Below, piece after piece: positions 10,423-62,724 of a DNA stretch of 64,000 bases (position 1 is its first letter; each line of letters starts with the position of its first letter). Source of the DNA: a virus; the IMG/VR virus record IMGVR_UViG_3300028394_000042; one strand, 5' to 3'. The translations under genes and the position numbers were made by a program. The notes below the pieces were generated by a model that saw nothing but the letters and a program-made list of their open reading frames with translations, had not been told where the DNA came from and did not search any database.

Positions 10423-13056
10423 TTATCCGATTTCTTGCGCCGTGGTGGTCTCTTGCGGGTCTTGCCAGAATTTATCGCACCAACCAGTCGGTACGAGAAT
10501 ACCCGGCATATTCTGCACAATTTCTTCTCCAGAAAAAAGCCCCGCTTTACTGAGCAGCTCAATTATCGCCAGCCAATTGGGCGGCGCGCTTTTCTGTAGT
10601 TCAAAATACCGGTCTATGGCGCGGCGGTTGAGCCACCAATTATCGGCACGGCGCAACAGGTAGTTGTACGCTTGCTGCTTGTTTCTAGGGCGCGGTAACA
10701 CGGCCAGCTTACCTAGTTGGATAGCATTGTTTAGCTCGCCCATAAGCGTGATGTGCGCTGTTTTTGGGCTGACCAATTTGTTCAGCGCGCACGGCAAATG
10801 GAACGCTGTGCCGTAAGTCTCGTCTAGCCAGCGGTGCAGGTCACGCAGCACGACCTCGGTAAGCGTGCCGGTTTGGGCGGCTAGGCTCATGCGGCTACGC
10901 AGCGTGCGCTGGATGTAAGCGGGAAGCACATGTTGCAGCACCGAGAAGTCTGTATTAGCTGCAGGGGCTGTGCCGTTGATCAGCTGCCAGCCGTAACCAG
11001 TTGCTATAGCGGCGCACGTTGGAGTTAACCGCACGGTCACAGGCAGGTTATGGCACCGTGTAACTGCCGCGCTGAATACGGTGTCGTCAAAGGCGTTTGA
11101 AGCTAGTAGCGGCCAGTCTGATTCGTTGCTGGCTTTAACCAGCTGTTGTGCGTTGTGGCTTTTACGCAACCCCGCATATTGTATATGAGCGCAGTTCAAG
11201 GCTGCGGCAATGCGTACAGCCGCGTTAAAGTTTGCGCCGACTATGCCAATAGCCGCGCTGTCTTTACGCAGCACCGGCGCCAGTAGCTGCGCTGTGATCC
11301 CGGCAAACACAGTCCAGATGAACGAGTTTTCATAGCTGGGTGTTAAAAACTGCCGGATAGCTGGCGGGGCTACAGGCGTTGGCTCGGGAAAAGATATCTT
11401 TGATCGGTTGCGCTGCAGTAGATTAGCCAGCGTGATTTCGCCGTCTGTGCCAAGTTCGTATTGCGCGAACCGGAACACAGACGCATACTCGTCCCAGCCA
11501 GCGCGCCCTGACACCATGATTAGCTCAGGTTGGTGTAGCTGGATTGCGAGCAAGTGGCTGCGCCTATTCCACGCCCGGTCAAACACAATGAGTTTGCCGT
11601 GGGGCGCTGCGTGGGCCGCGGCGAAAGACAGCAGGCCCATGCGCTCTATCTTTGTAGCCGTGTCGCAGAACTCCAGCGCGTCGTTTTTTATGTAGATAGT
11701 GCCGGAGTACAGCTTTTCGCCGTTGTCAGCTTGGATGATTTTTTTGATCACGGGCCGGGCTGAGCAAATCTGGTGGCCAAGCTGGTTCCACCAGCTGTTG
11801 TCTTTCTCTACGATGACCCAGCGTCGGTGCGCTTTTGTCGGCGCTGTGGGCGCGACGGCTAAGGCTGTTATGACCCGGCTGGCGAACGTCGCAGACAAGT
11901 TTACGTCGCACTTCAGCAGAAAATGCTGCAGCTTATCGTGCGGCACCATGAGCCTAGACGCGAACGAGTAGGCTGATATTTCATTCATGCCGCGCAGTGT
12001 TTTCTGCAAGCTGTTTTGCCAAGTCGCAGCGCTACGCCGGATTTCAGCGAGCGTGGTAATGGCGGGAGCTTCGCGCACCCTAGCAGCTGGCGCGAGCGGC
12101 GTTACGCAGACGTAACCTTTGGCGTGGCATGCCCGGCTGACAAGTTCTGGCGTAATCGTGTTGCCGTGAAACATGCGCGGAATAGGCGGGAACGCAAGCC
12201 AGCTGGGGCCGTAGCTGGTAGCTTCGGGGCCATTGTAGCTGGCCATGATGGGCAGCAGATCCAAGCCGTGCGCGCGTTGTTTACACTGAGCACGCAAGGC
12301 CCAGAATGGGTCGTCTACTACAAACTGCGAGCTTTTGAGTAGCTCAGGCCCCGGTAGTGTGGCTGTCTTGAGCAGGAAGTACCCAGCTTCTGGGCGTTGC
12401 CGGGTGTAGCCGCTGGTCGGTATGAACGTGCTTTTGGTCGCGAAGTCCTCGGCGTACTGCACGACTAGCACGCCTGTTGGGCGCCCGGGTAGATCGTAGA
12501 ACGGGAACACGATGCTGGCGCCGTCTGCCCTGAGCTTAGTGGGTTTGGGGCGGCCCACTTCTGAGCACAAGTTTACGATCTGGTCGTGGTGCGCTACGCC
12601 GACTAGGCCGTCAGCGCAAATTTCTTTGCCGACGCCTAGTTCCCGCAGGCGGCAGGCGATCACGTCGTCGCCGTGGTTCCAGATCTGCGCCTCAGCGTCG
12701 CACCAGAAGTTCTCGACAGCCAACTGGCGCCGTAACCCTCGGTCGTACTGCCCGGCTAAGTTATCTTTATCCCCGGAATTTACCAGTCCAAGGTCGGCAA
12801 ACCGGGTCAATGCAGCCGGCAGGCTTGTATTCCATATCAGCGCGCCAAACGTTATGATATCTCCATGGGCCGCGCACCGGTCGCAGTGCAGCCAAATACC
12901 GTCTGTTGTGATATCGTCGAACAGGTGCAACGCAGTTTGTTGGCATAGCGGACACTGAACAACTGCTGGAAACGCAGGTTTTTCCAGCTCAATACCCAAA
13001 GCTGACAGCGCCCCCATGTGGTGCTGACGGCGGACTAAACAGGTAGGCAAACCCAT
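10423..13056 (-). CDS. large protein with N-terminal primase-type zinc finger (divergent primase-like)
   Basis: CPLC...WLHCDRCAAHGDII, later IVFPFYDLPGRPTG. No convincing TOPRIM or Walker motifs. Confidence 0.55.
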   Translation of the reverse strand: MGLPTCLVRRQHHMGALSALGIELEKPAFPAVVQCPLCQQTALHLFDDITTDGIWLHCDRCAAHGDIITFGALIWNTSLPAALTRFADLGLVNSGDKDNLAGQYDRGLRRQLAVENFWCDAEAQIWNHGDDVIACRLRELGVGKEICADGLVGVAHHDQIVNLCSEVGRPKPTKLRADGASIVFPFYDLPGRPTGVLVVQYAEDFATKSTFIPTSGYTRQRPEAGYFLLKTATLPGPELLKSSQFVVDDPFWALRAQCKQRAHGLDLLPIMASYNGPEATSYGPSWLAFPPIPRMFHGNTITPELVSRACHAKGYVCVTPLAPAARVREAPAITTLAEIRRSAATWQNSLQKTLRGMNEISAYSFASRLMVPHDKLQHFLLKCDVNLSATFASRVITALAVAPTAPTKAHRRWVIVEKDNSWWNQLGHQICSARPVIKKIIQADNGEKLYSGTIYIKNDALEFCDTATKIERMGLLSFAAAHAAPHGKLIVFDRAWNRRSHLLAIQLHQPELIMVSGRAGWDEYASVFRFAQYELGTDGEITLANLLQRNRSKISFPEPTPVAPPAIRQFLTPSYENSFIWTVFAGITAQLLAPVLRKDSAAIGIVGANFNAAVRIAAALNCAHIQYAGLRKSHNAQQLVKASNESDWPLLASNAFDDTVFSAAVTRCHNLPVTVRLTPTCAAIATGYGWQLINGTAPAANTDFSVLQHVLPAYIQRTLRSRMSLAAQTGTLTEVVLRDLHRWLDETYGTAFHLPCALNKLVSPKTAHITLMGELNNAIQLGKLAVLPRPRNKQQAYNYLLRRADNWWLNRRAIDRYFELQKSAPPNWLAIIELLSKAGLFSGEEIVQNMPGILVPTGWCDKFWQDPQETTTAQEIG

Positions 13057-14233
13057 GTCAAATATTCCGTTGGATCAGATACAGGACGTTAGTGGCCGCG
13101 AAACCCACAGGCTTACCGCTCTTCATCCCGCGCCCGATTTTGTTAAATCAGCTGCGCCGGAACGGCTTTCTGGCGATGGCACACTTCCTCGCCACTTGTA
13201 TGCTGATCCGCGCAACAAACTTTACCCATGTCACACTGCGCCTGCAACATGGATGTCTGCGTTGTTTTTCACAGACAAACAAGCCAGCTTTGATAAGGCG
13301 ACAGCGGACGCTATCCAATCCAAGATACACAAAGCAGCTGAGTATTTCGGCATTTCTGGTCTTGTAGCCGAACTGGAGAAGACGTCGGCAGCCCAAAGCG
13401 GGTTGTCTGAAAGCCAACTGCCGGACGACGCTTTTGCTGTTGTCTGGGTAGGCGACAATGGCAACACAGAACGCCACTGGCCGATGCGCAACGCTACGGA
13501 AGTCAAGTTTGCCGCTGCGCATTTCCAGAAGTACCGGGACGAGTTTGTATTCGAAGACCGGCACATGATTGCCACCAAGATCCTGAAGAAAGCCGCGCAG
13601 TACAGCGCTGACACGTCTGATACAAACGGCTCGCTGGAAATGGCCGCTGGCCTCGGCGCCTGTGCGGCAAAGGTCGCCAGCCAAATGATTAAAGACCGCG
13701 TACGGCTCACGCAACGGGACCATGGCCCGCTGGCCGCTGAGTTGTCAAAGTTAGCTACTGTGATTGACCAGCACCCGGAGAAAGCTCGGGAACTGGACAC
13801 GCGGCTAAAGTTGGCGAGCGCGGTCGACCAATTTGACAAGAGCACGCAGCTGCACCGGCTTTACGACGCCGGCGGGTTGTCGCGGCCCGAAGAAGTGCTT
13901 TTTGCCATTACCGAGAAAGTCGCTCGTGACTTCATGCAGCACAACGTCGAGACCACCACGGGCAACGTGTATGCCCTTGATGATCTGGAGAAGCTGGCCG
14001 TTGAAGACGTCCGCGAATGGATGGGCGACGACTTCGCTGACGCTGTGAGCGCTGGCGGTGTTTACATGGACCGCGACAAGCTGGCTGAGATTGTCCCCAC
14101 ACTTGACCGGGGTATGGCAGCCACGCTTGACCGGCTTGTGCAAGAGAAGAACGCCGGCGCTGTTGTGAAGCAGGCGGCAGCAGCTGATACGCTGCTGCCA
14201 TTGAGCAAGCTATACGAGTTGGCTAAAGGCTGA
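13055..14233 (+). CDS. K-x-A-rich putative virion head protein
   Basis: 392 aa, SD AGGTAGG; about 14 K-x-A motifs by hand count (VKSAA, DKQAS, EKVAR, EKLAV, VKQAA...). Confidence 0.75.
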   Translation: MSNIPLDQIQDVSGRETHRLTALHPAPDFVKSAAPERLSGDGTLPRHLYADPRNKLYPCHTAPATWMSALFFTDKQASFDKATADAIQSKIHKAAEYFGISGLVAELEKTSAAQSGLSESQLPDDAFAVVWVGDNGNTERHWPMRNATEVKFAAAHFQKYRDEFVFEDRHMIATKILKKAAQYSADTSDTNGSLEMAAGLGACAAKVASQMIKDRVRLTQRDHGPLAAELSKLATVIDQHPEKARELDTRLKLASAVDQFDKSTQLHRLYDAGGLSRPEEVLFAITEKVARDFMQHNVETTTGNVYALDDLEKLAVEDVREWMGDDFADAVSAGGVYMDRDKLAEIVPTLDRGMAATLDRLVQEKNAGAVVKQAAAADTLLPLSKLYELAKG

Positions 14234-15380: not shown

Positions 15381-15837
15381 GCTTCCCGGCCCTATTCTCG
15401 ATCTGCAGTACACCCCGGCGGTACAGCTCATTTAGATTGTACCCAATTGTCTCCATAGGCGGATTAGGAAGAGACGTAACCTCTTCCCCAGACTCAAGAT
15501 CTGTAAAGCCCGCGTGAGTGGTCCATGTGGCGTATTGGCCGTCTGCAAAGACCAGCTGCATCAGGCACTCCCGGCACGACTCTGGTTCTGTGAGCACTGG
15601 TTTGAGCGCCGTGAGCAAAAGCGTGCGCTGCTCTGGCTTGAGAAATACCAGTTTCTCCAGCATGTCAGCTATCAGCAGAAACATGACGGTAATCTGGTCT
15701 AGTGAGTCAGCAGCTGCAGCGGGTTTAACGCCAAGCACAGTTGTAAAAATTGCCCGCACTTGCAGCTTGCTTAACTTCACGACTCGCATTACCATATCAA
15801 GCGTTACGGTTTTTTCTACTTCGGAGGTATTTTCCAT
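15343..15837 (-). CDS. hypothetical protein
   Basis: Start at MENTSEVEK (15837) or METMEN (15846). Confidence 0.7.
   Translation of the reverse strand: MENTSEVEKTVTLDMVMRVVKLSKLQVRAIFTTVLGVKPAAAADSLDQITVMFLLIADMLEKLVFLKPEQRTLLLTALKPVLTEPESCRECLMQLVFADGQYATWTTHAGFTDLESGEEVTSLPNPPMETIGYNLNELYRRGVLQIENRAGKHVKPTARSVEES
15767..15795 (+). promoter_or_regulatory. candidate sigma70 promoter for the plus-strand gene at 15836
   Basis: TTGCTT-N17-TACCAT, located inside the opposite-strand CDS. Confidence 0.4.
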
Positions 15838-16111
15838 GGTTTCCATCGTTGACGGTCTTTCCAAGGTGGCGTCGGGTCGGGCGGAGTTTGTGGTCAGCGG
15901 TAGCGGCGTGGAGGAACTCATGTCGGCCGCAACGTCGAACATTGTGATCCAGAAGGCTGCAGAGCTGGGTTTGAACCGCCCGGGTGTGTCTAACGCCAGC
16001 GGGCCGTACCCCGTTGACGCCGAAGGCAAGACCGACGATGACCTCCTGCTCGGCAAGCGCGGCCCAGTGGCTGCTTACCAGCGGGATTTTGTTATCTTAG
16101 CGTCGATCTAA
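15836..16111 (+). CDS. small putative virion protein
   Basis: MVSIVDGLSKVASGRAEF... with GGAGG SD; contains KVA and KAA motifs. Confidence 0.75.
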   Translation: MVSIVDGLSKVASGRAEFVVSGSGVEELMSAATSNIVIQKAAELGLNRPGVSNASGPYPVDAEGKTDDDLLLGKRGPVAAYQRDFVILASI

Positions 16112-56029: not shown

Positions 56030-56416
56030 TCACTGTGTGTCTTGCAGAGCCGAAGCAGCAGCTGCCTGTAACATCAGAACAGCCTGCGCAATAGCCGGCT
56101 GCTCTGCTGCCACGTCGGCCGCACTGCTGAACGCAGCCGATTTCTCAACCGGACCACCGAGGCCCGCGGCGGCAAGCATCGCGTCGAGTTGCTGGTTATG
56201 AGCAACTAACGTCGATGCTTGCGCAGCCGCGACCTTTTCCTGCTCTGCCGTGTAGAGCACGTGGAGCTTAGAGGCAGCTGACCACATTTCTGCAGCTTCA
56301 CTCTCGGAACGCGGGTTAACCCCGTATGCCGAAAGCTTCTCGAAGAAATACGGCGCGGCAAGCTCCGTCACCATTGTGGCGTACGCCTGCTCAGCCGCCT
56401 CTTTGACATTGTCCAT
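56030..56416 (-). CDS. K-x-A-motif head protein
   Basis: VKEAA, FFEKLSA, EKVAA, EKSAA. Confidence 0.75.
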   Translation of the reverse strand: MDNVKEAAEQAYATMVTELAAPYFFEKLSAYGVNPRSESEAAEMWSAASKLHVLYTAEQEKVAAAQASTLVAHNQQLDAMLAAAGLGGPVEKSAAFSSAADVAAEQPAIAQAVLMLQAAAASALQDTQ

Positions 56417-56453
56417 GACTAGTGCTCCTGTGGTTTTTAACCGTTACACGACA

Positions 56454-57380
56454 TTACTTGAAGTCAACGCGAGCCAGACCGTTGGTATGGCCGAAAGAGC
56501 CACCCTGTGTCTGGTAGGCAAAGTACTCAAGCATGAAAGCTTCACGACGGATGTACATCGTGGTGGGTTCCAGCTCGTAGTTCTTGCCGATGAACTTGGG
56601 CGAGGCAAACATAAAAAGACTATCGTCGGGGACCAAATCGCGCTTGATAGTCACAATCCAACGGCAGTTGAGGAAGTTAGTTTCCGCCCAGCCGTTCTTG
56701 ATGATGTCCTGCGAGAAGTCACCGCCCATTTCGTCGCGGCCGAACTTCAGCAGCTCCTTGATGGTGATGTTATTCACCAAGCAAGTTTCAACTTCGAAGT
56801 GGCTGGACGTACGGGGCATGACCTTCAGGGCGTCAACAAGGGTCTCACGAGTGATACCGCCGCTGATCTCCTCGTACTGCACATAGCCAGAAGCCGGATT
56901 AGTGGCGCCAGCGGTGGGCAGCACAGCATTGAAGGCAGCAATGAACTTGCTATCTTCTTCAGCCAGCATGTCCTTGATCATGTTGTCCGACAGAACCTGA
57001 CGAATGTCGATCACATACGTCCGCAGCTCGTCGACGTCCTTCACAGCGCGAGGCGACACGATCCGGTCAAACATGACGCGGTAACGTGGGCCACGGATGT
57101 AGAAGTTAATCGGGAGCGTCGCGAACGGAAGCGACACAGCCGCCGGGGAATCGGGTTCCTTGTCCACAACCTTAACGGGCTTGTCAGTATCAACCTGACG
57201 GTCAAGCTCGTCGTTGGTGATGGTCAGCGGGGGCATAATCCGCCGATAGAACCCGTCTTCACGCATCTTGGTGCGCGTGAAGTCGTTAACAGCGTCGATG
57301 GCCTGCTTCTGCATGCCGGGGGTATCGAGCTGCTCAAAAAGAGTCTCATTGAGCAATTGAACTTCTTGCTGAGTGGGCAT
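56454..57380 (-). CDS. major capsid protein (HK97 fold, compact)
   Basis: Start MPTQQE with GGAGG SD; RTKMREDGFYRRIMPP...KDVDEL...IKDMLAEEDSKF; follows protease, scaffold and decoration genes. Confidence 0.85.
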   Translation of the reverse strand: MPTQQEVQLLNETLFEQLDTPGMQKQAIDAVNDFTRTKMREDGFYRRIMPPLTITNDELDRQVDTDKPVKVVDKEPDSPAAVSLPFATLPINFYIRGPRYRVMFDRIVSPRAVKDVDELRTYVIDIRQVLSDNMIKDMLAEEDSKFIAAFNAVLPTAGATNPASGYVQYEEISGGITRETLVDALKVMPRTSSHFEVETCLVNNITIKELLKFGRDEMGGDFSQDIIKNGWAETNFLNCRWIVTIKRDLVPDDSLFMFASPKFIGKNYELEPTTMYIRREAFMLEYFAYQTQGGSFGHTNGLARVDFK

Positions 57381-57418
57381 TATTGGAACCTCCATGTTCC
57401 TAGTAGTTAGTAAGTGGG

Positions 57419-57988
57419 TCAGTCGATAGTGGCGGCAGTGCCAGCTGGCAGGTACACGCTCCAGAACGAAAGAGTCAGCACGCCATTGTGATTACGGGAT
57501 GCGCCGCTGGAAACAACGCCGCAAACCGCGTTAACGTACTGGACAGCGCTCTGATTGGTCAGCACGCCGCCTGTGGAGAGAGCACTTGTCGACGTACCAG
57601 CTGTGAGCGTGTCGCCCGGGGCGTACGTCTGCGTGGAATCAAATTCCGTGGACGCAATTTCGTACCCGCCAGTTGCAACAAGACCAGACAACTTGCCCGA
57701 AGGCGAAATAGCCTGATGCATGAAGTTACCGCCAGCTGTGGTGCCGGGGTTGCTCACATCAGCATCGCCGGAGCCATTGAGCAAGAAGATGCCCATGTGC
57801 GCAGCGCTGACGCCCGGAAGGAACACTTCCTTGCCGCCAGACAACTCAAGATGCACAACGCGACCGCGCGGAACTGTGAACGAAACGCTGCTCGACAACT
57901 TTGCAGAGTAGTCGAGGCTAGCCATATCGAACCAGCCCTTCTTCACGTCAAGGCCGTGCTCGAACATCAAATCAGGGGCAGTAGCCAT
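57419..57988 (-). CDS. putative capsid decoration/cement protein
   Basis: Directly upstream of the capsid gene; small, beta-rich; TEFDSTQTYAPGDTLTA. Confidence 0.65.
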   Translation of the reverse strand: MATAPDLMFEHGLDVKKGWFDMASLDYSAKLSSSVSFTVPRGRVVHLELSGGKEVFLPGVSAAHMGIFLLNGSGDADVSNPGTTAGGNFMHQAISPSGKLSGLVATGGYEIASTEFDSTQTYAPGDTLTAGTSTSALSTGGVLTNQSAVQYVNAVCGVVSSGASRNHNGVLTLSFWSVYLPAGTAATID

Positions 57989-58047
57989 CGTAAGACCTCC
58001 ATGTCTTTGTCAATTTCGGGAATCATTCCCGGGGTAGTAAAACGAGC

Positions 58048-58479
58048 TCAAGAAGTGGGCGGATTGAGTCCAAGACCCGTGAAAAATTTCACGTCGGAAG
58101 CTTTGAGGCGACCGTCGCGGGCACCCACATACCCGCTCGTCAAACTAGAGTCAGGGTTGTAGCCGGCGGTCTTCGTGGTCGACCCAACCGGTGTGCCAAT
58201 ACGAGCCATCTCGGCAGCGTTTTTGTGCGACGCCAGCTTGATAACAAGCTCCATCGCGCGCACCGGATCACGAAGCGCTGCATCCAACGCTTCCTTCTGG
58301 TGTGCTTCGATGCGCTCGTTATCGAGGCAAGCTTTAACAGCAGCAGGAACTAAGCTAGCCAGCTTTGCCTGCGTGTCGTCTTGCGCCTTGATAGCGGCCG
58401 CGGCCTTTGTCAGCGCTGCATCGGAATAACCGATGTAGTCGATGACTTTCTGGACAAGAGCGGTATTGCTTGTGGACAT
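58048..58479 (-). CDS. K-x-A-motif head/scaffold-associated protein
   Basis: Start MSTSNT with GGAGG SD; TKAAA, AKLAS, QKEA, IKLAS, HKNAA, TKTAG. Confidence 0.75.
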   Translation of the reverse strand: MSTSNTALVQKVIDYIGYSDAALTKAAAAIKAQDDTQAKLASLVPAAVKACLDNERIEAHQKEALDAALRDPVRAMELVIKLASHKNAAEMARIGTPVGSTTKTAGYNPDSSLTSGYVGARDGRLKASDVKFFTGLGLNPPTS

Positions 58480-58495
58480 GAAAACCTCCAAGAAA

Positions 58496-59833
58496 TTAAC
58501 GACTGATCAGTTCGATGATGTGCTGCTTCATGCTGTCACGCAACTGGCGCGACCGCTTAGTGCGAGCTTCCTTAACCTGAAACTTACCGGAGCGCTTGAA
58601 GTCAACAACCATGCGCCCAATCGAGTCCAGAGCCGCCGCCATCTTGGCCTCAGCAGCTGCGGGATCGCCGCCCATAGCGGCAGCAGGGTCAGCCGGCGGC
58701 ATGCCGCCAGCTTCTGCGCCGGGAGCGCCGCCAGCCTCAGCGCCACCGTGTGACAGGGCCTGCAGCAGCGCTTCCGGTGGGATGCCAAGCTCTTCGAGGG
58801 CCATGGCCAACTCCTGAACAGCCTCTTCGTTACCGGGCTGTCCGCCACCCTCTTCGCCGCCCATCTCACCGCCCATTTCGCCACCCATCTCGCTGCCCAT
58901 TTCGCCGCCCGCCATCGGCGGAGCCTCGCTCAGGCCAGATTCCATGTCGCCGGGAGCGGAGTGATCTTCACCCTCTGCAGCGTCATCGGTCGGATCGGCA
59001 CCAGCGGCTTTGGACGACAAGAACCCGATAAACAGGTCAGCCATCTCGTCGGCCTCGCGCAGTGTGTTTGCGCACACCTCGCGAACAGACGCTTCAGCAG
59101 CTTCCTTATCCAGTCCAATCGCAGCCGCCAGTTCGTAGCCGGCCTTGAAGGCAGAAGCCTTAACACCAGCGTCAGAAGGCTCAAGGTCAACAGACTTGTC
59201 CTTGCCTTCGCCCGGCATCTTCACAGCCTTCGTGCCCGACTCTTCAGCCTTTTCCTTAGCCGAAGACTCAGACGACTCGTGAGCCGAGCTGCCCTCAATC
59301 TTCTTCTTCAAGAACTCAGGCATCTCAGACTGTTTGGTCAAGTTAGCTGTACCGAAGTTAATCAGGTTCGCAAGGATCTCGTTACCAAGCGCGCCGCAAT
59401 TAGCGCGGGCTTCCTTGAACGACACAGCGCTGTACTTCTCGCCGCTGTCAGCCTTAGCTGGGTGAGTAGTGCCCGGATCGTCCTTGGTGCCCTTGTAATC
59501 CTTTTCAGCTGCGGGGTCTTCACCAGTGGCAGCGGTGTTCGTGTTGATATTCAGCTGGACGTCATCCTGCCGGCCTTCTTGCGAAAGGGGAGCAGTGCTG
59601 TCAACACCGAGCGGGCCCTGCTGCTTCTTCATGTCCGCTTCGTACTCAGCGCTGCGCGCGCCCTCTGAGGCGACCTGCACGTTGTTGTCAACATGGGCCG
59701 TGGGGTGCGTGGACGCACCGACGTAAGTACCCGGATCAGCTGGCGTAGGCGCTGCCGACTTTACAGCGCCTTCCGAGATCTCAGCAGCCAGCGCGTTGAG
59801 TTGTGCGAACAGTGAACGTGTCGTCCGTGCCAT
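58496..59833 (-). CDS. putative scaffolding protein
   Basis: Acidic, low-complexity (GGEM repeats), between protease and capsid genes; several K-x-A motifs. Confidence 0.7.
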   Translation of the reverse strand: MARTTRSLFAQLNALAAEISEGAVKSAAPTPADPGTYVGASTHPTAHVDNNVQVASEGARSAEYEADMKKQQGPLGVDSTAPLSQEGRQDDVQLNINTNTAATGEDPAAEKDYKGTKDDPGTTHPAKADSGEKYSAVSFKEARANCGALGNEILANLINFGTANLTKQSEMPEFLKKKIEGSSAHESSESSAKEKAEESGTKAVKMPGEGKDKSVDLEPSDAGVKASAFKAGYELAAAIGLDKEAAEASVREVCANTLREADEMADLFIGFLSSKAAGADPTDDAAEGEDHSAPGDMESGLSEAPPMAGGEMGSEMGGEMGGEMGGEEGGGQPGNEEAVQELAMALEELGIPPEALLQALSHGGAEAGGAPGAEAGGMPPADPAAAMGGDPAAAEAKMAAALDSIGRMVVDFKRSGKFQVKEARTKRSRQLRDSMKQHIIELISR

Positions 59834-59877
59834 GGTCATCTCCTTTGGGGTCTAATCGTTAAACGATTAGCTTCCGT

Positions 59878-61338
59878 TCATGTGACATAATTTTGCAGTA
59901 CACAATGGTTTGTTGTCAACCAATTCTTTCCATATTTTTCGCAAACAACGGCGAGGGCAGCAATCTTATACAACGCGTAATGTTGCGCAAGTGCTGTTTC
60001 TGCATTACTGCTCGCCCGCTTCTCCGATGGAAACTCAACTGATTGAACGTTACGCAATGCAGCCAAATAAGCGCGTTTTTCAACGTTACTCGGCAACACG
60101 CTGTGCGTATAACTCACACGCTCTGCCCACGCTCTAGTGAGCGGCGAAGCAGCGGGTGCAGGTAAATATGCGTTGTGTTCAAGCTGGCTCACAATGTCTG
60201 CATCGTTAGCCAACTTAGAGAAAATGTTAGGCAGCGCATATGCAACAGCGCCTACCAGTTTCTCGTCCGCAGACTTAACTGTCAACGCTAAGAAATCCCG
60301 CAACGGCAGAATTACACCAGCGTCGGCAAGTCCACGTAACACCTCGGCCATTTTAACAGATTGGCACTGCATAACATCAATAGCTGGTTGCACATCTCGC
60401 GATGTTGCAAGCGCTACTTGTGTCCAACTCGGCGCCATGTGTGTAGCTTGCTTCTCTGCCTGTACCAGCTCAGCCAATACTTCCAGTTGCAGTTGTGCAT
60501 ACTTGGATGTAACGCCATCAGTATCAAACCCAATCGGAGCTGTTACGCCAAGCTGCTCAGCCAGCTCTGCGCCTGACAGCGTGACTGCGCCAGCGGCTTT
60601 TTCCAGCCGACCGGACACATAGGCAATACGGTCAGCCGGGCGGAAAACGTGGGAGATATCGAAGAAACTGGGGTTTGGATTATCAGCGTGCAGCACATGC
60701 CCATCTTCAAGCACGCGGCCAATGTTGCGCTTCAATCCGCCAGCTTTACAATGGCCGCCGCTCTCGACTGCATCACAATACTCAGCGCGGGTCTTGGCTG
60801 TGTTGCCGCAAGCAGAGCACTTATCAAACGGAATCTTGCAGGCCATAGAAACGGCGATGTCTCTGTCTTGCGACAGCTTCTCCATTTCTTTGTCTGCAAT
60901 CAGCCCGCCATTACGGTCGGCAGCTTCTTTCGAGCCGTTCAGCGCAACAACAAGTTCGATCCGGCGCATGGGTTCGTGGTAAGCAGACGCCTTTACGATA
61001 CCGAAGCTTTTGGCTTGATCCTTGTTGGCGTGGTCGCGATAGAACCGAGCAAACTTTGTGAACGTCGGGTGATACCGCTGGCAGCATTCGCGCGTGAAAC
61101 CGTCGCCGTTGCGGTTCGGGCCGTAGTCTTCCGTAGCGCCAATAGCGATCATGTGTACGGGAATCTCGTCTTTGGCAAACTTGATGTTTTCAAGCTTGTG
61201 CGCAAACTCCGCGCCGGCCCGTTTGATCAGGTCAGCCTTGTCTGAGCCGAGCAGCCCGCGACTAGATAACTTAATCAACGAAGCAACTGGCTCGCTGAAG
61301 TCTTGCGCGTGCGGCTGGATAACTTTGATCATGCTCAT
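59878..61338 (-). CDS. prohead maturation protease with Zn-ribbon insertion
   Basis: NRNGDGF, YRDHANKD (His), VSMAC (Ser), CSACGN...C...C, FFDISHVFRPAD. Confidence 0.82.
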   Translation of the reverse strand: MSMIKVIQPHAQDFSEPVASLIKLSSRGLLGSDKADLIKRAGAEFAHKLENIKFAKDEIPVHMIAIGATEDYGPNRNGDGFTRECCQRYHPTFTKFARFYRDHANKDQAKSFGIVKASAYHEPMRRIELVVALNGSKEAADRNGGLIADKEMEKLSQDRDIAVSMACKIPFDKCSACGNTAKTRAEYCDAVESGGHCKAGGLKRNIGRVLEDGHVLHADNPNPSFFDISHVFRPADRIAYVSGRLEKAAGAVTLSGAELAEQLGVTAPIGFDTDGVTSKYAQLQLEVLAELVQAEKQATHMAPSWTQVALATSRDVQPAIDVMQCQSVKMAEVLRGLADAGVILPLRDFLALTVKSADEKLVGAVAYALPNIFSKLANDADIVSQLEHNAYLPAPAASPLTRAWAERVSYTHSVLPSNVEKRAYLAALRNVQSVEFPSEKRASSNAETALAQHYALYKIAALAVVCEKYGKNWLTTNHCVLQNYVT

Positions 61339-61350
61339 GTTGGTACTCGG

Positions 61351-62724
61351 TTAGCTGAGTGCGCGGCCTATTTCTTGCGATTCCAGATTGTTCTTCCGGC
61401 TTTCGGCTTTCAGCTTCTCTAGTTCGACCATCTGTTTCACGTCAAAATCAGCGAATTGCCCAGCCTCCAGCCGCTTGCGCAACAGCGACTGCATTGCCGC
61501 GCCGGAGTCCGTAAAGCTGGGCGCCATCTCTGCAATCTGGTTGTAGGCTGATGCAACTTCGTGCGGGTCATAGCCAGAGATTACAGGGTCGTTCAAAATA
61601 AGGTCGTTCAGCACGCCGCGGGACTTGATTTGCTGCAGTTTCTGCTCGTGATCAGCGTCTGACAGTGACGCGTAGGCTTTTTGGCGCTGTGCTGTTGGCT
61701 CTGTCTTCTTGCTCATATCCGGCGGTAAGTCTGAGCCCTGACCCATAATGCCACCCAGCGTGGCCATCGTGTTGCCAAATGACATACCGGGTGTAGGCGC
61801 CGGCGCAGCAGGGCCGGGTTCTTTAGCGGCTGACTTCAACGTCAGCGGCTCGTTTTGCTGCTCAAACATAATTGAGCCTGTAAGAAACTCTGGCGCTGTT
61901 TTCTTCCAGTTGGCCGCCGCAGTCTTCTCGGGCAGCACGTAACTTTGCGCTAAGTTGTACGCAGCAACGTCTTCCAGCACACCTGCAACAAGTCGCACTG
62001 GCAGCAAATCACCAAAGTGCGATTCTTTTGTCGCGGCTTGCTTTTCAACATGCGGGTAAACAGCGGCTACCTTGCGCAGCACCATCTCGCCGTCATTGCC
62101 AAGGCGCCGGCTAACTTCTCGCACAGCGTCACCGAATGTCATGCTGCCGGGTACGCGGAAATAGCTGCACAGCTTTTCCATGCTGGCGGCTGCTTTTTGA
62201 TACGCCGCGCTAGCCTGTCGGCGCAGTTCTTCTGCCGCGCGCTTGTCAGCCATCTTTTTGCTGTAAACACGCTCTGCCGCAGACTTCTCGTCACGGGGCG
62301 GCGGTGTCCATTGATTCGCGGGCAAGGCAACTGTCGCGGCTGCTTGTTTGGTCAGCGCGCTGTTACGCCGGGCAAGAAAGCCAGTTGGCGACACTGCATA
62401 CTCAGTCGACACGATGGACGACTGTGTAACTTCGCCAGCTGTCTTGACATGCTTGGGGTACAGTGCGTCCATGACAACATTGACGTCGGCTAACTGGAAG
62501 TCAGCGGCTTTTTCCAGCGCGTCTTCACCTTGTTCGCGCTGCTTTGTTGTCCGCCCGGTGTTGTAGGCGTGCACCATGAGATTGATGTGGCCAGCCGGGA
62601 TGTTAGACGCTGTGGCACTCTTGATGATTGCGTCGTTCGGGCTGGAGCCGGCGTTGACAAGCTCAGCCGCTTTTTCAATAGCGGCAATCAGCGTCTGCTC
62701 GGCTTGTTTATTTAGTGGCCGCAT
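61351..62724 (-). CDS. K-x-A-rich putative internal head protein
   Basis: About 15 K-x-A motifs in the first ~300 aa. Confidence 0.75.
   Translation of the reverse strand: MRPLNKQAEQTLIAAIEKAAELVNAGSSPNDAIIKSATASNIPAGHINLMVHAYNTGRTTKQREQGEDALEKAADFQLADVNVVMDALYPKHVKTAGEVTQSSIVSTEYAVSPTGFLARRNSALTKQAAATVALPANQWTPPPRDEKSAAERVYSKKMADKRAAEELRRQASAAYQKAAASMEKLCSYFRVPGSMTFGDAVREVSRRLGNDGEMVLRKVAAVYPHVEKQAATKESHFGDLLPVRLVAGVLEDVAAYNLAQSYVLPEKTAAANWKKTAPEFLTGSIMFEQQNEPLTLKSAAKEPGPAAPAPTPGMSFGNTMATLGGIMGQGSDLPPDMSKKTEPTAQRQKAYASLSDADHEQKLQQIKSRGVLNDLILNDPVISGYDPHEVASAYNQIAEMAPSFTDSGAAMQSLLRKRLEAGQFADFDVKQMVELEKLKAESRKNNLESQEIGRALS

What the first reader, a model, noticed from the sequence alone, without database searches (positions are those of the whole stretch)
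56030..62724. K-x-A motif saturates head-module proteins: candidate recognition site for the prohead protease
Seen (hand counts): about 15 of 22 lysines in the first ~300 aa of 61351..62724 are K-x-A and none in its C-terminal third. There are about 13 in the protease, mostly flanking its catalytic core, several each in the scaffold, 58048.. and 56030.. proteins, and one near the capsid N-terminus (MQKQA-IDAV). The preceding residues are often hydrophobic then E/T/V (LEKAA, VEKQA, LTKQA); K-x-S variants occur. Sheath, baseplate and fibre proteins do not show this density. Established: T4 gp21 and phiKZ gp175 cut many head proteins at short recurring motifs ending in Glu. Inference: this phage uses a Lys-x-Ala site to shred scaffold and propeptides, and the motif can serve as a tag to identify internal head proteins genome-wide.
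Basis: partly seen in the sequence, partly recalled or inferred. Interest (0 to 1): 0.75.

Follow-up and report, generated by a model that had tools for sequence, protein, structure and literature searches.

The report
Lys-x-Ala head-protease cleavage code
The head-assembly proteins of this uncultured ~200-kb phage and thousands of relatives carry a short Lys-x-Ala signal that most likely marks where the phage's T4-type capsid protease cuts, a rule unlike the cut-after-glutamate rule of studied relatives, but no cut has been measured.

Summary
K-x-A occurs 15 times in the 457-aa protein (15 of the 22 lysines before residue 301, none after residue 299) and 13 times in the 486-aa protein. That is about 3x the composition-corrected expectation, and it survives shuffling within 15- and 30-residue blocks. 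The motif is directional (A-x-K 3, R-x-A 2 in p457). Of 800 residue pairs tested, it is the most enriched in the head module.

The 486-aa protein has a T4 gp21-type prohead protease fold (Z 12.5). H103 and S164 are invariant, and inteins sit at both positions in some relatives.

At most sites K and A are conserved while x and the flanking residues vary. 110 protease homologues, mutually under 50% identical, average 3.7x enrichment. Salmonella phage Arash shows the same motif.

The same blind statistic applied to T4 core proteins returns I/L-x-E, the known gp21 motif.

Two sites are placed where maturation cuts would be expected: K247-A-A249, in the only disordered linker of the protease, and K30-Q-A32, near the capsid N-terminus.

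An unrelated protein at 13055..14233 carries 14 sites.

Cleavage, most likely after Ala, is inferred and has not been shown. Scaffold, p128 and capsid are not individually enriched in this window.

This scan has flagged the same motif on at least 16 other related phage windows, so this is another instance of it. I found no paper that describes it.

The parts
61351..62724 (-). p457, an unnamed head-module protein and the strongest candidate substrate
   Evidence: 15 K-x-A against 4.8-5.4 expected. There is no Pfam or PHROG family. The Atlas model is essentially unstructured, pLDDT 0.45.
61828..62724 (-). p457 residues 1-299, the K-x-A-rich part; if every site were cut, the pieces would be 4-41 residues long
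   Evidence: Across 36 homologues K-x-A is the most enriched of 168 pairs in this part (436 vs 141.9). Positions partly turn over: the 34%-identity orthologue L037 has 11 sites and only 6 align with the window's.
61351..61827 (-). p457 residues 300-457, a conserved C-terminal domain free of K-x-A; candidate surviving product of about 17 kDa
   Evidence: Over the last 157 residues of 36 homologues there are 2 sites against 49 expected. This is the most depleted of 42 pairs; the next lowest is 0.27x.
59878..61338 (-). 486-aa prohead protease carrying 13 K-x-A
   Evidence: AF2 model from 116 sequences, pLDDT 89. T4 gp21 (5jbl_B) matches at Z 12.5, rmsd 3.0, 151 residues, with the next entry at 5.5. 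Foldseek gives probability 1.0 to 5jbl, and the viral library returns many proteins annotated as prohead protease.
60637..61338 (-). protease catalytic core, residues 1-234, with H103 (61030..61032), S164 (60847..60849) and a four-Cys cluster (C174, C177, C188, C197)
   Evidence: H103, S164, C174, C177 and C188 are invariant in 116 sequences, and C197 is at least 90% conserved. Inteins are inserted after H103 and at S164-M-A-C167 in long family members. T4 gp21 has no Cys at all.
60592..60600 (-). K247-A-A249 in the core/C-domain linker, the candidate autocleavage site
   Evidence: Residues 236-250 are the only stretch of the model with pLDDT below 50. K247 and A249 are invariant in the 18-sequence alignment. 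79 of 80 diverse homologues have K-x-A within 26 residues after the core's end (chance about 0.16 each), with consensus L-[E/Q]-K-A-A-S.
59878..60576 (-). protease C-terminal helical domain, residues 255-486, with 8 further K-x-A sites mostly at helix ends or in loops
   Evidence: In the family consensus K-x-A stands out as islands in otherwise variable sequence, around positions 286 and 440.
58496..59839 (-). 447-aa acidic, low-complexity scaffold-like protein with 6 K-x-A
   Evidence: Not enriched in this window (6 vs 4.3-4.8). Homologues have a median of 10 against 5.5, and five of the six sites are at least 94% conserved.
58048..58491 (-). p147, a small head-module protein with 6 K-x-A
   Evidence: 6 vs 1.8-2.4, p 0.002-0.011. 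K conservation at the sites averages 0.94.
56454..57395 (-). major capsid protein; the true start is probably Met6 at 57380
   Evidence: 28-29% identity to the Arash major capsid protein gp226 over 98% of its length. 107 of 120 homologues have Met aligned to window Met6 and about 105-115 have nothing aligned to residues 1-5.
57300..57308 (-). K30-Q-A32, the candidate capsid maturation site; a cut here would remove about 27-32 N-terminal residues
   Evidence: K and A are invariant in 120 homologues, while the -1 residue is 62% and x is 82% conserved. The site is kept in Arash (VKEAG) and in L039 (VKQAA) at 25-30% identity.
56030..56416 (-). p128, an Ala-rich small protein with 3 conserved K-x-A
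   Evidence: 3 vs 1.3, not significant alone. Homologues have a median of 4 against 1.6. K is 0.84-1.0 conserved at the sites.
13055..14233 (+). p392, a K-x-A-rich protein 42 kb from the head module; a new candidate substrate or internal head protein
   Evidence: 14 vs 3.6-4.4, p <= 2e-4. Its 25 homologues carry 11-15 sites each against about 3 expected, with most motif Lys invariant and most other Lys poorly conserved. It shows no homology to the protease or to p457 (hhalign probability about 1%). Database relatives are unnamed viral proteins only.

Best explanation
K-x-A, more fully [L/M/I]-x-K-x-A-[S/A/G], is the recognition motif of the phage's own gp21-fold serine prohead protease, the product of 59878..61338.

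The proposed sequence of events inside the assembled prohead is as follows.

1. The protease cuts itself at the exposed linker site L-E-K247-A-A249, separating the catalytic core from its C-terminal helical domain.
2. It removes about 27-32 residues from the capsid protein N-terminus at K30-Q-A32.
3. It chops the N-terminal 299 residues of p457 into pieces of 41 residues or fewer, leaving a C-terminal domain of about 158 residues.
4. It also processes p147, p128, the scaffold and the distant p392.

By analogy with every enzyme of this fold, where the determinants are P3 and P1 (T4 L/I-x-E, phiKZ S/A/G-x-E, SPN3US A-x-E, and herpesvirus V/L/I-x-A then Ser, the last recalled from my own knowledge), Lys would be P3, Ala P1 and the small following residue P1'. 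The cut would then fall after Ala.

Shown here: the enrichment, its specificity and conservation, the protease fold, and where the sites sit. Inferred: that cutting happens at all, which bond is cut, and the order of events.
For: 1. Enrichment of about 3x survives local-composition shuffles, and the motif is directional and Lys-specific. It is the top pair of 800 tested.
2. The adjacent gene has a gp21-fold protease core: Z 12.5, with invariant H103 and S164 and inteins at both positions.
3. K and A are conserved while x and the -1 residue vary in p457, protease, p147, scaffold, p128, capsid and p392.
4. The feature is clade-wide. 110 protease homologues under 50% identical to each other total 1433 vs 383 expected, and every one exceeds 2.2x. 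It is the top pair in the Arash head module, 44 vs 19.8, and the top pair in mycobacteriophage Catera gp94, 18 vs 8.3.
5. Site placement fits: the only disordered linker of the protease has a site in 79 of 80 homologues, the capsid N-terminal site is invariant, and 11 of 13 protease sites lie in loops or at helix ends.
6. In p457, K-x-A is the most enriched pair in the N-terminal part and the most depleted pair in the conserved C-terminal domain.
7. Positive control: the same blind statistic on T4 gp67, gp68, gp21 and gp22 returns I-x-E (15 vs 5.9) and L-x-E (16 vs 7.0), the known gp21 motif (PMC5694885).
8. p392 acquired the motif without any homology to the other carriers.
9. Precedents in SPN3US: several motif copies inside long propeptides, and C-terminal self-cleavage of the protease (PMC10052503, PMC5694885).
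Against: - No mature N-terminus or semi-specific peptide is known for this phage or any relative. The Arash virion proteome gives only coverage percentages, and its supplement holds only gene annotations.
- Every characterised gp21-type protease cuts after Glu, so this would be an unprecedented specificity for the fold.
- Four conserved sites (39, 53, 95, 137) lie inside the folded protease core, and two (421, 458) lie in mid-helix. These may have structural roles or may be cut only after unfolding.
- Scaffold, p128 and capsid are not individually enriched in this window.
- The apparent avoidance of K-x-A in the mature capsid (17 vs 113.5) is not usable, because other pairs deviate as much in that highly conserved family.
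- There is no sequence-profile link to T4 gp21 or to any Pfam peptidase family.
- I did not show by superposition that H103 and S164 are equivalent to the gp21 catalytic residues.
Confidence: 0.63

Rival explanations
1. K-x-A is a protease motif, but the scissile bond or the enzyme differs from the best reading. The cut could fall directly after Lys (Lys as P1, Ala as P2'), or a host or second phage protease could read the motif.
For: The sequence alone cannot place the bond. From my own knowledge, the HK97 capsid maturation cut is after a Lys (K103/S104). Glu is 3x over-represented at -1.
Against: An i/i+2 determinant pair matches the P3/P1 pattern of all studied enzymes of this fold (PMC5694885, PMC10052503). 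The +3 residue is Ser, Ala or Gly in 64 of 79 linker sites, which fits a small P1'. The -1 residue is too variable to be P1. The motif co-occurs with this protease family across distant hosts (Salmonella, Vibrio, Mycobacterium, lake metagenomes), which argues against a host enzyme.
Confidence: 0.12
2. K-x-A is a multivalent docking or targeting motif that is not cut. It could bind the capsid interior, the scaffold or the protease, and so recruit proteins into the prohead.
For: The motif is repeated in proteins expected inside the prohead, including the unrelated p392. T4 internal proteins use an N-terminal capsid-targeting sequence (PMC5694885).
Against: Known targeting sequences are single and N-terminal, not 10-15 copies spread over 300 residues. 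The motif is also present in the capsid protein's own N-terminus and in the protease linker. Strong depletion in the conserved C-terminal domain of p457 is expected for a destructive signal, not a binding one. The T4 control shows that this kind of statistic picks up cut sites.
Confidence: 0.12
3. K-x-A is a by-product of Ala-rich helical or low-complexity sequence, or of shared ancestry, and has no function of its own.
For: The carriers are Ala-rich (15-27% Ala). K-x-x-A is also raised in p457 (12 vs 4.8). Several sites lie in confident helices. Counts pooled over homologues are not independent.
Against: Enrichment persists in 15-residue block shuffles. The mirror A-x-K and the pairs K-A and R-x-A are not enriched. 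K and A are conserved while neighbours drift, including in disordered linkers of variable length. Unrelated proteins share the motif. The p457 orthologue L037, at 34% identity, keeps the number of sites while 5 of its 11 positions differ.
Confidence: 0.07
4. The motif marks lysines that are covalently modified or cross-linked, for example by acylation or isopeptide bonds, during head maturation.
For: A strictly conserved Lys with a small residue two positions on could suit a modifying enzyme.
Against: I noticed no candidate modifying enzyme in the module. From my own knowledge, cross-linking lysines in capsids are single structural positions. Ten to fifteen copies in disordered or scaffold-like sequence, and the depletion in the retained domain of p457, do not fit.
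Confidence: 0.03

Closest known systems
Bacteriophage T4 prohead protease gp21 (MEROPS S77, PDB 5JBL) with its substrates gp22, gp67, gp68, gp23, gp24 and the internal proteins
   Same: Same fold (Z 12.5 over 151 of 164 residues). The gene sits just upstream of the scaffold and capsid genes. There is a short P3-x-P1-type motif repeated many times in core proteins and in the protease itself, and it is recovered by the same statistic.
   Different: No sequence-profile similarity. The motif is K-x-A, not L/I-x-E. The protein is 486 aa against 212, with a four-Cys insert and a 230-residue C-terminal helical domain. T4 gp21 has no Cys.
phiKZ gp175 / SPN3US gp245 (MEROPS S80) and their processed head proteins
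   Same: A large phage with a probably virion-packaged RNA polymerase. A motif-specific protease processes many head proteins, with several motif copies inside long propeptides, and the protease cuts off its own C-terminus (PMC5694885, PMC10052503).
   Different: Those enzymes cut after Glu (S/A/G-x-E, A-x-E). Here Glu is not required, and the fixed residues are Lys and Ala. The self-cleaved C-terminal part would be about 240 residues against 64 in SPN3US.
Herpesvirus assemblin (MEROPS S21), maturation and release sites (V/L/I)-x-Ala then Ser
   Same: If the cut is after Ala, P1 Ala and P1' Ser/Ala/Gly with a determinant at P3 resemble the herpesvirus rule, which I recall from my own knowledge. 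Phage prohead proteases of this type are reported to share the fold and catalytic residues of the herpesvirus protease (cited in PMC5694885).
   Different: P3 is Lys, not an aliphatic residue. The aliphatic residue sits two positions further back. No herpesvirus protease appeared among the fold-search matches.
Salmonella phage Arash gp222 and its head module (OQ632216; PMC10585845), the nearest cultured relative
   Same: The protease core is 36% identical and the capsid 28%. K-x-A is the top pair in gp218-gp225, with gp220 at 10 vs 3.0, gp223 at 8 vs 3.0 and gp225 at 7 vs 1.8, and the capsid has the site VKEAG.
   Different: All these genes are annotated only as 'structural protein'. The paper mentions neither a protease nor cleavage.

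Membership tests
gp21-type prohead serine protease (T4 gp21 fold; MEROPS S77/S80, herpesvirus-like clan) | The gp21 / herpesvirus-protease fold of the catalytic domain | tested here: met
   5jbl_B matches at Z 12.5, rmsd 3.0 A, 151 aligned of 164, model residues 1-234, with the next entry at Z 5.5. Foldseek gives probability 1.0 and TM 0.60 on the target. Many viral-library matches are annotated as prohead protease.
gp21-type prohead serine protease (T4 gp21 fold; MEROPS S77/S80, herpesvirus-like clan) | Conserved catalytic His followed by Ser | tested here: met
   H103 and S164, 61 residues apart, are invariant in 116 sequences. Inteins are inserted exactly at these two positions in family members. 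I did not check residue-by-residue superposition on the gp21 His/Ser.
gp21-type prohead serine protease (T4 gp21 fold; MEROPS S77/S80, herpesvirus-like clan) | Third catalytic residue (an Asp aligned about 25 residues after the Ser, e.g. D178 after S153 in SPN3US gp245; PMC5694885) | tested here: inconclusive
   D172 and D227 are invariant, but a Cys-rich insert follows S164 and no coordinates were available to assign the equivalent residue.
gp21-type prohead serine protease (T4 gp21 fold; MEROPS S77/S80, herpesvirus-like clan) | Sequence-profile membership (Pfam peptidase families S77, S78 or S80; hhalign to T4 gp21) | tested here: not met
   No Pfam family at E <= 0.01. The only PHROG is 2774, of unknown function. 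hhalign against T4 gp21 gives probability 0.7%. No PDB sequence match. This is therefore a separate sequence family of the same fold.
gp21-type prohead serine protease (T4 gp21 fold; MEROPS S77/S80, herpesvirus-like clan) | Cleavage after Glu at (L/I/S/A/G)-x-E | tested here: not met
   Tested only by proxy. No x-E pair is among the top enriched pairs in any carrier or in the pooled head module, whereas the same test recovers I/L-x-E in T4. The enzymatic specificity itself cannot be tested with these tools.
gp21-type prohead serine protease (T4 gp21 fold; MEROPS S77/S80, herpesvirus-like clan) | Gene placed in the head module next to the scaffold and major capsid genes | tested here: met
   The order on the minus strand is p457, protease, scaffold-like p447, p147, p189, capsid. 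The same order is seen in 37 related loci and in Arash.
Motif-directed head maturation ('cleavage code') as in T4, phiKZ and SPN3US | A short motif over-represented in prohead core proteins and in the protease, and present near the capsid N-terminus | tested here: met
Motif-directed head maturation ('cleavage code') as in T4, phiKZ and SPN3US | Mature termini mapped to the motif by Edman sequencing or mass spectrometry | not testable with these tools
   I found no peptide-level data for any relative.
Herpesvirus assemblin (MEROPS S21) | Assemblin fold and sequence family | tested here: inconclusive
   No herpesvirus protease is listed in the Foldseek or VIA results. Absence from those lists does not exclude a distant relation.

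The most novel reading that the evidence does not exclude
A very large, uncharacterised sequence family of gp21-fold prohead proteases (3,608 cluster representatives, with cultured members in Salmonella phage Arash, Vibrio phages and, more distantly, cluster C mycobacteriophages) has changed specificity from 'after Glu' to a herpesvirus-like 'after Ala', with Lys at P3. Its substrates have co-evolved a dense K-x-A code. Motif density would then predict, from sequence alone, which proteins are loaded into and processed inside the head, including the otherwise unplaceable p392.
Probability: 0.5. Interest if true: 0.65.

Novelty: new variant of a known kind. Interest (0 to 1): 0.6.

Why it matters
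Motif-directed proteolysis governs head maturation in T4 and in the phiKZ-like giant phages, and every mapped enzyme of that fold cuts after Glu. A second specificity in the same fold (Lys at P3, Ala at P1), spread over thousands of mostly uncultured ~200-kb phages, would have three consequences.

1. It would give a simple rule for annotating propeptides, mature capsid termini and internal or ejected head proteins in a clade where about 80% of genes have no known function.
2. It would supply a natural pair of specificities for studying how S1 and S3 pockets evolve in the herpesvirus/phage protease clan.
3. It could be tested at once in cultured phages (Arash, Vibrio phage D69), partly by re-searching mass-spectrometry data that already exist.

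Tried and rejected
- **Nucleotide search.** A search of the head module against 50,697 phage records found no match.
- **Family searches.** Pfam and PHROGs on nine head-module proteins gave nothing usable. p805, p392 and p877 likewise had no family.
- **First fold.** The first AF2 run, from a shallow 18-sequence alignment, gave a core with pLDDT below 50. It was replaced by the 116-sequence model.
- **PDB sequence searches.** Profile searches with A1 and A3 returned only chance helical matches.
- **hhalign to T4 gp21.** A3 against a single T4 gp21 sequence gave no alignment, so I could not show catalytic-residue equivalence by sequence.
- **Arash data.** The paper and its supplement hold coverage percentages and gene annotations, not peptides. 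Capsid coverage of 86.6% is compatible with a missing N-terminus but does not show one.
- **Literature.** I found no paper on a K-x-A protease motif, and no mature termini for cluster C mycobacteriophages, phiRSL1 or PaBG. PaBG reports processing without sites.
- **p392 and p457 identity.** p392 matched only unnamed viral proteins (Atlas and homologue search). p457 had no usable Atlas match and its Atlas model is unstructured.
- **ORF 15518..16111.** It ranked high in the scan (3 vs 0.7), but it is Ser-rich, antisense to another ORF, and only one of its sites is conserved, so I dropped it.
- **Avoidance in the mature capsid.** The figure of 17 vs 113.5 was rejected as evidence, because K-A, K-x-S and E-x-A deviate as much in that 73-96%-identical family.
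- **Flank-weighted scan.** A scan of the whole contig found only scattered single sites.
- **DNA-level motif.** Not pursued, because the signal is confined to one frame of a few genes.

Full report
**Setting.** The window is bases 14759-78758 of a 120-kb viral contig judged 59% complete. Relatives are uncultured phages of about 200 kb. The nearest cultured ones are Salmonella phage Arash and Vibrio phages D69, D181 and D148, at 28-37% protein identity.

The flagged region is a head module on the minus strand. Its order is p315, p457 (61351..62724), a 486-aa protein (59878..61338), an acidic scaffold-like 447-aa protein, p147, p189, the major capsid protein (56454..57395) and p128.

**The observation.** The hand counts are exact.

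- p457 has 15 K-x-A among the 22 lysines before residue 301, and none in residues 300-457.
- The 486-aa protein has 13.
- The scaffold has 6, p147 has 6, p128 has 3 and the capsid has 1 (K30-Q-A32).

Observed counts against shuffles that keep composition, either globally or within 30- or 15-residue blocks:

| Protein | Observed | Expected | p |
|---|---|---|---|
| p457 | 15 | 4.8-5.4 | <= 2e-4 |
| protease | 13 | 4.4-4.7 | <= 4e-4 |
| p147 | 6 | 1.8-2.4 | 0.002-0.011 |

Scaffold, p128 and capsid are not individually enriched. Sheath, p441, p338 and p189 are at or below expectation.

The signal is directional and Lys-specific. In p457 the counts are K-x-A 15, A-x-K 3 and R-x-A 2. Pooled over the module and gaps of 0-3 residues (800 pairs), K-x-A ranks first at 43 vs 17.3, z 6.2.

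The wider context is [L/I] at -2, E/V/I at -1, and A/S/G at +3.

A scan of the whole contig found one more strongly enriched protein, p392 at 13055..14233 on the plus strand (14 vs 3.6). It also found a weaker one, an 805-aa protein just beyond the window end (10 vs 4.4). Outside these carriers the total is about as expected.

**The protease.** A shallow alignment gave a poor model.

An exhaustive profile search found 3,608 cluster representatives, 1,686 of them below 1e-30. With 116 diverse sequences the model reached pLDDT 89.

- Residues 1-234 match T4 gp21 (5JBL) at Z 12.5, rmsd 3.0 A, 151 of 164 residues, with the next entry at 5.5.
- Foldseek agrees, and the viral library returns many annotated prohead proteases.
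- H103, S164 and three of the four Cys of a cluster (C174, C177, C188) are invariant, and C197 is at least 90% conserved.
- Long family members carry inteins inserted directly after H103 or at S164-M-A-C167. By established knowledge, inteins typically home into active-site motifs.
- There is no sequence-level link to Pfam peptidase families or to T4 gp21.

So this is a separate sequence family of the gp21 fold, with a Cys-rich insert and a 230-residue C-terminal helical domain.

**Conservation.**

- In 35 p457 homologues (34-64% identity), K at K-x-A sites averages 0.78 conserved, against 0.50 for other Lys. At many sites K and A are invariant while x and -1 vary freely.
- The same holds for the protease, p147, scaffold, p128 and p392.
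- The capsid site is invariant in 120 homologues, with -1 at 62% and x at 82%. It is kept in Arash (VKEAG) and in L039 (VKQAA) at 25-30% identity.
- Across 110 protease homologues that are mutually under 50% identical, K-x-A totals 1433 against 383 expected. Every protein exceeds 2.2x, and K-x-A is by far the top pair.
- In Arash the top pair of gp218-gp225 is again K-x-A (44 vs 19.8), with a clean [L/M/I]-x-K-x-A-[S/A/G] context.
- In mycobacteriophage Catera it is the top pair of the protease-bearing gp94, 18 vs 8.3.

**Placement.**

- The only disordered stretch of the protease model, 236-250, is the linker between the core and the C-terminal domain, and it holds L-E-K247-A-A249.
- In 79 of 80 diverse homologues a K-x-A lies within 26 residues after the last core strand (chance about 0.16 each). 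The linker varies in length and sequence, and the consensus is L-[E/Q]-K-A-A-S.
- Eleven of the 13 protease sites are in loops or at helix ends.
- In p457, K-x-A is the most enriched of 168 pairs in the N-terminal part (436 vs 141.9). It is the most depleted of 42 pairs in the last 157 residues (2 vs 49; the next lowest is 0.27x).
- In eleven p457 sequences under 60% identical to each other, the totals are 133 vs 43 in the N-terminal part and 2 vs 13 in the tail.
- Only 6 of the 11 sites in the 34%-identity orthologue align with window sites, so positions turn over while density is kept.
- p392 has no detectable homology to the protease or to p457, so it acquired the motif independently.

**Control.** The same blind pair statistic on T4 gp67, gp68, gp21 and gp22 returns I-x-E (15 vs 5.9) and L-x-E (16 vs 7.0) as the two top pairs. 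K-x-A is unremarkable there. These are the experimentally known gp21 sites (PMC5694885), and their effect size is no larger than the one seen here.

**Interpretation.** The best reading is that K-x-A is the recognition motif of this protease.

In all studied enzymes of the fold the determinants are P3 and P1: T4 L/I-x-E, phiKZ S/A/G-x-E and SPN3US A-x-E with a preference for Ser at P1' (PMC5694885, PMC10052503), and herpesvirus V/L/I-x-A then Ser (my own knowledge). By analogy I place the cut after Ala, with Lys at P3 and a small P1'.

Precedents exist for several motif copies in long propeptides, and for C-terminal self-cleavage of the protease (same papers).

Cleavage itself, the bond that is cut and the fate of each product are inferences. 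I found no mature terminus for any relative.

The rivals are a different bond or enzyme, an uncut docking motif, a compositional by-product, and a Lys modification site. They are weighed in their own sections.

**Caveats.**

- Pooled counts over homologues are not independent. In the highly conserved capsid family other pairs deviate as much as K-x-A, so I do not use the apparent avoidance there.
- Sites inside the folded core (39, 53, 95, 137) and in mid-helix (421, 458) may be structural.
- The scaffold is not enriched in this window.

**Relation to earlier notes.** This scan has flagged the same motif on at least 16 windows from other related genomes, with the same reading and the same missing experiment. 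Those are unchecked AI notes and I do not count them as evidence. Notes on this genome say its RNA polymerase is probably packaged in the virion. That fits a head with many internal proteins, but I did not test it.

Noticed in passing
Homologues have K or R there. The window encodes only tRNA-Thr, with no suppressor. It could be a sequencing error, a real nonsense variant, or a difference between copies.
   Followed up: partly
protease homologues P0002, P0015, P0040, P0079 (family of window 59878..61338): About a quarter of the best 150 family representatives are 600-1300 aa because of Hint/LAGLIDADG inteins. These are inserted right after the invariant His (position 103) or at the Ser-Met-Ala-Cys block (164-167). 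P0040 carries two.
   Followed up: partly
window 60748..60819 (protease residues 174-197): Four conserved Cys (C174, C177, C188, C197) form a zinc-ribbon-like insert directly after the catalytic Ser. T4 gp21 has no Cys at all.
   Followed up: no
window 13055..14233 (+): p392 is one of the few plus-strand genes. It has 14 K-x-A and no detectable relatives with a name. There is a weak sub-threshold hit to DUF6582 at residues 48-100. It may be an internal head or ejection protein encoded away from the head module.
   Followed up: partly
L040:65-2482 (-), i.e. 65-2482 bases beyond the window end: An 805-aa protein upstream of the head module has 10 K-x-A against 4.4 expected; homologues have a median of 12 against 5.2. 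Invariant sites include residues 39, 219 and 619. It has no Pfam or PHROG family. It is syntenic with Arash gp218 ('structural protein'), whereas the portal annotated in Arash is gp204, elsewhere in that genome.
   Followed up: partly
window 57380..57395: The capsid ORF as listed starts 5 codons upstream of the Met used by most of 120 homologues, so the true start is probably the ATG at 57380.
   Followed up: yes
L068 (Mycobacterium phage Catera, gp94): In cluster C mycobacteriophages the homologous protease domain is the N-terminus of a 1369-aa protein placed just upstream of the major head protein. K-x-A is its top residue pair, and the capsid N-terminus has K42-Q-A and K45-L-A.
   Followed up: partly
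related loci such as L020, L021, L010 (between the p457 and protease genes): In several relatives about 1 kb separates the p457 orthologue from the protease gene, whereas the two are adjacent in the window. This suggests an inserted gene there (coordinates). I did not examine it.
   Followed up: no
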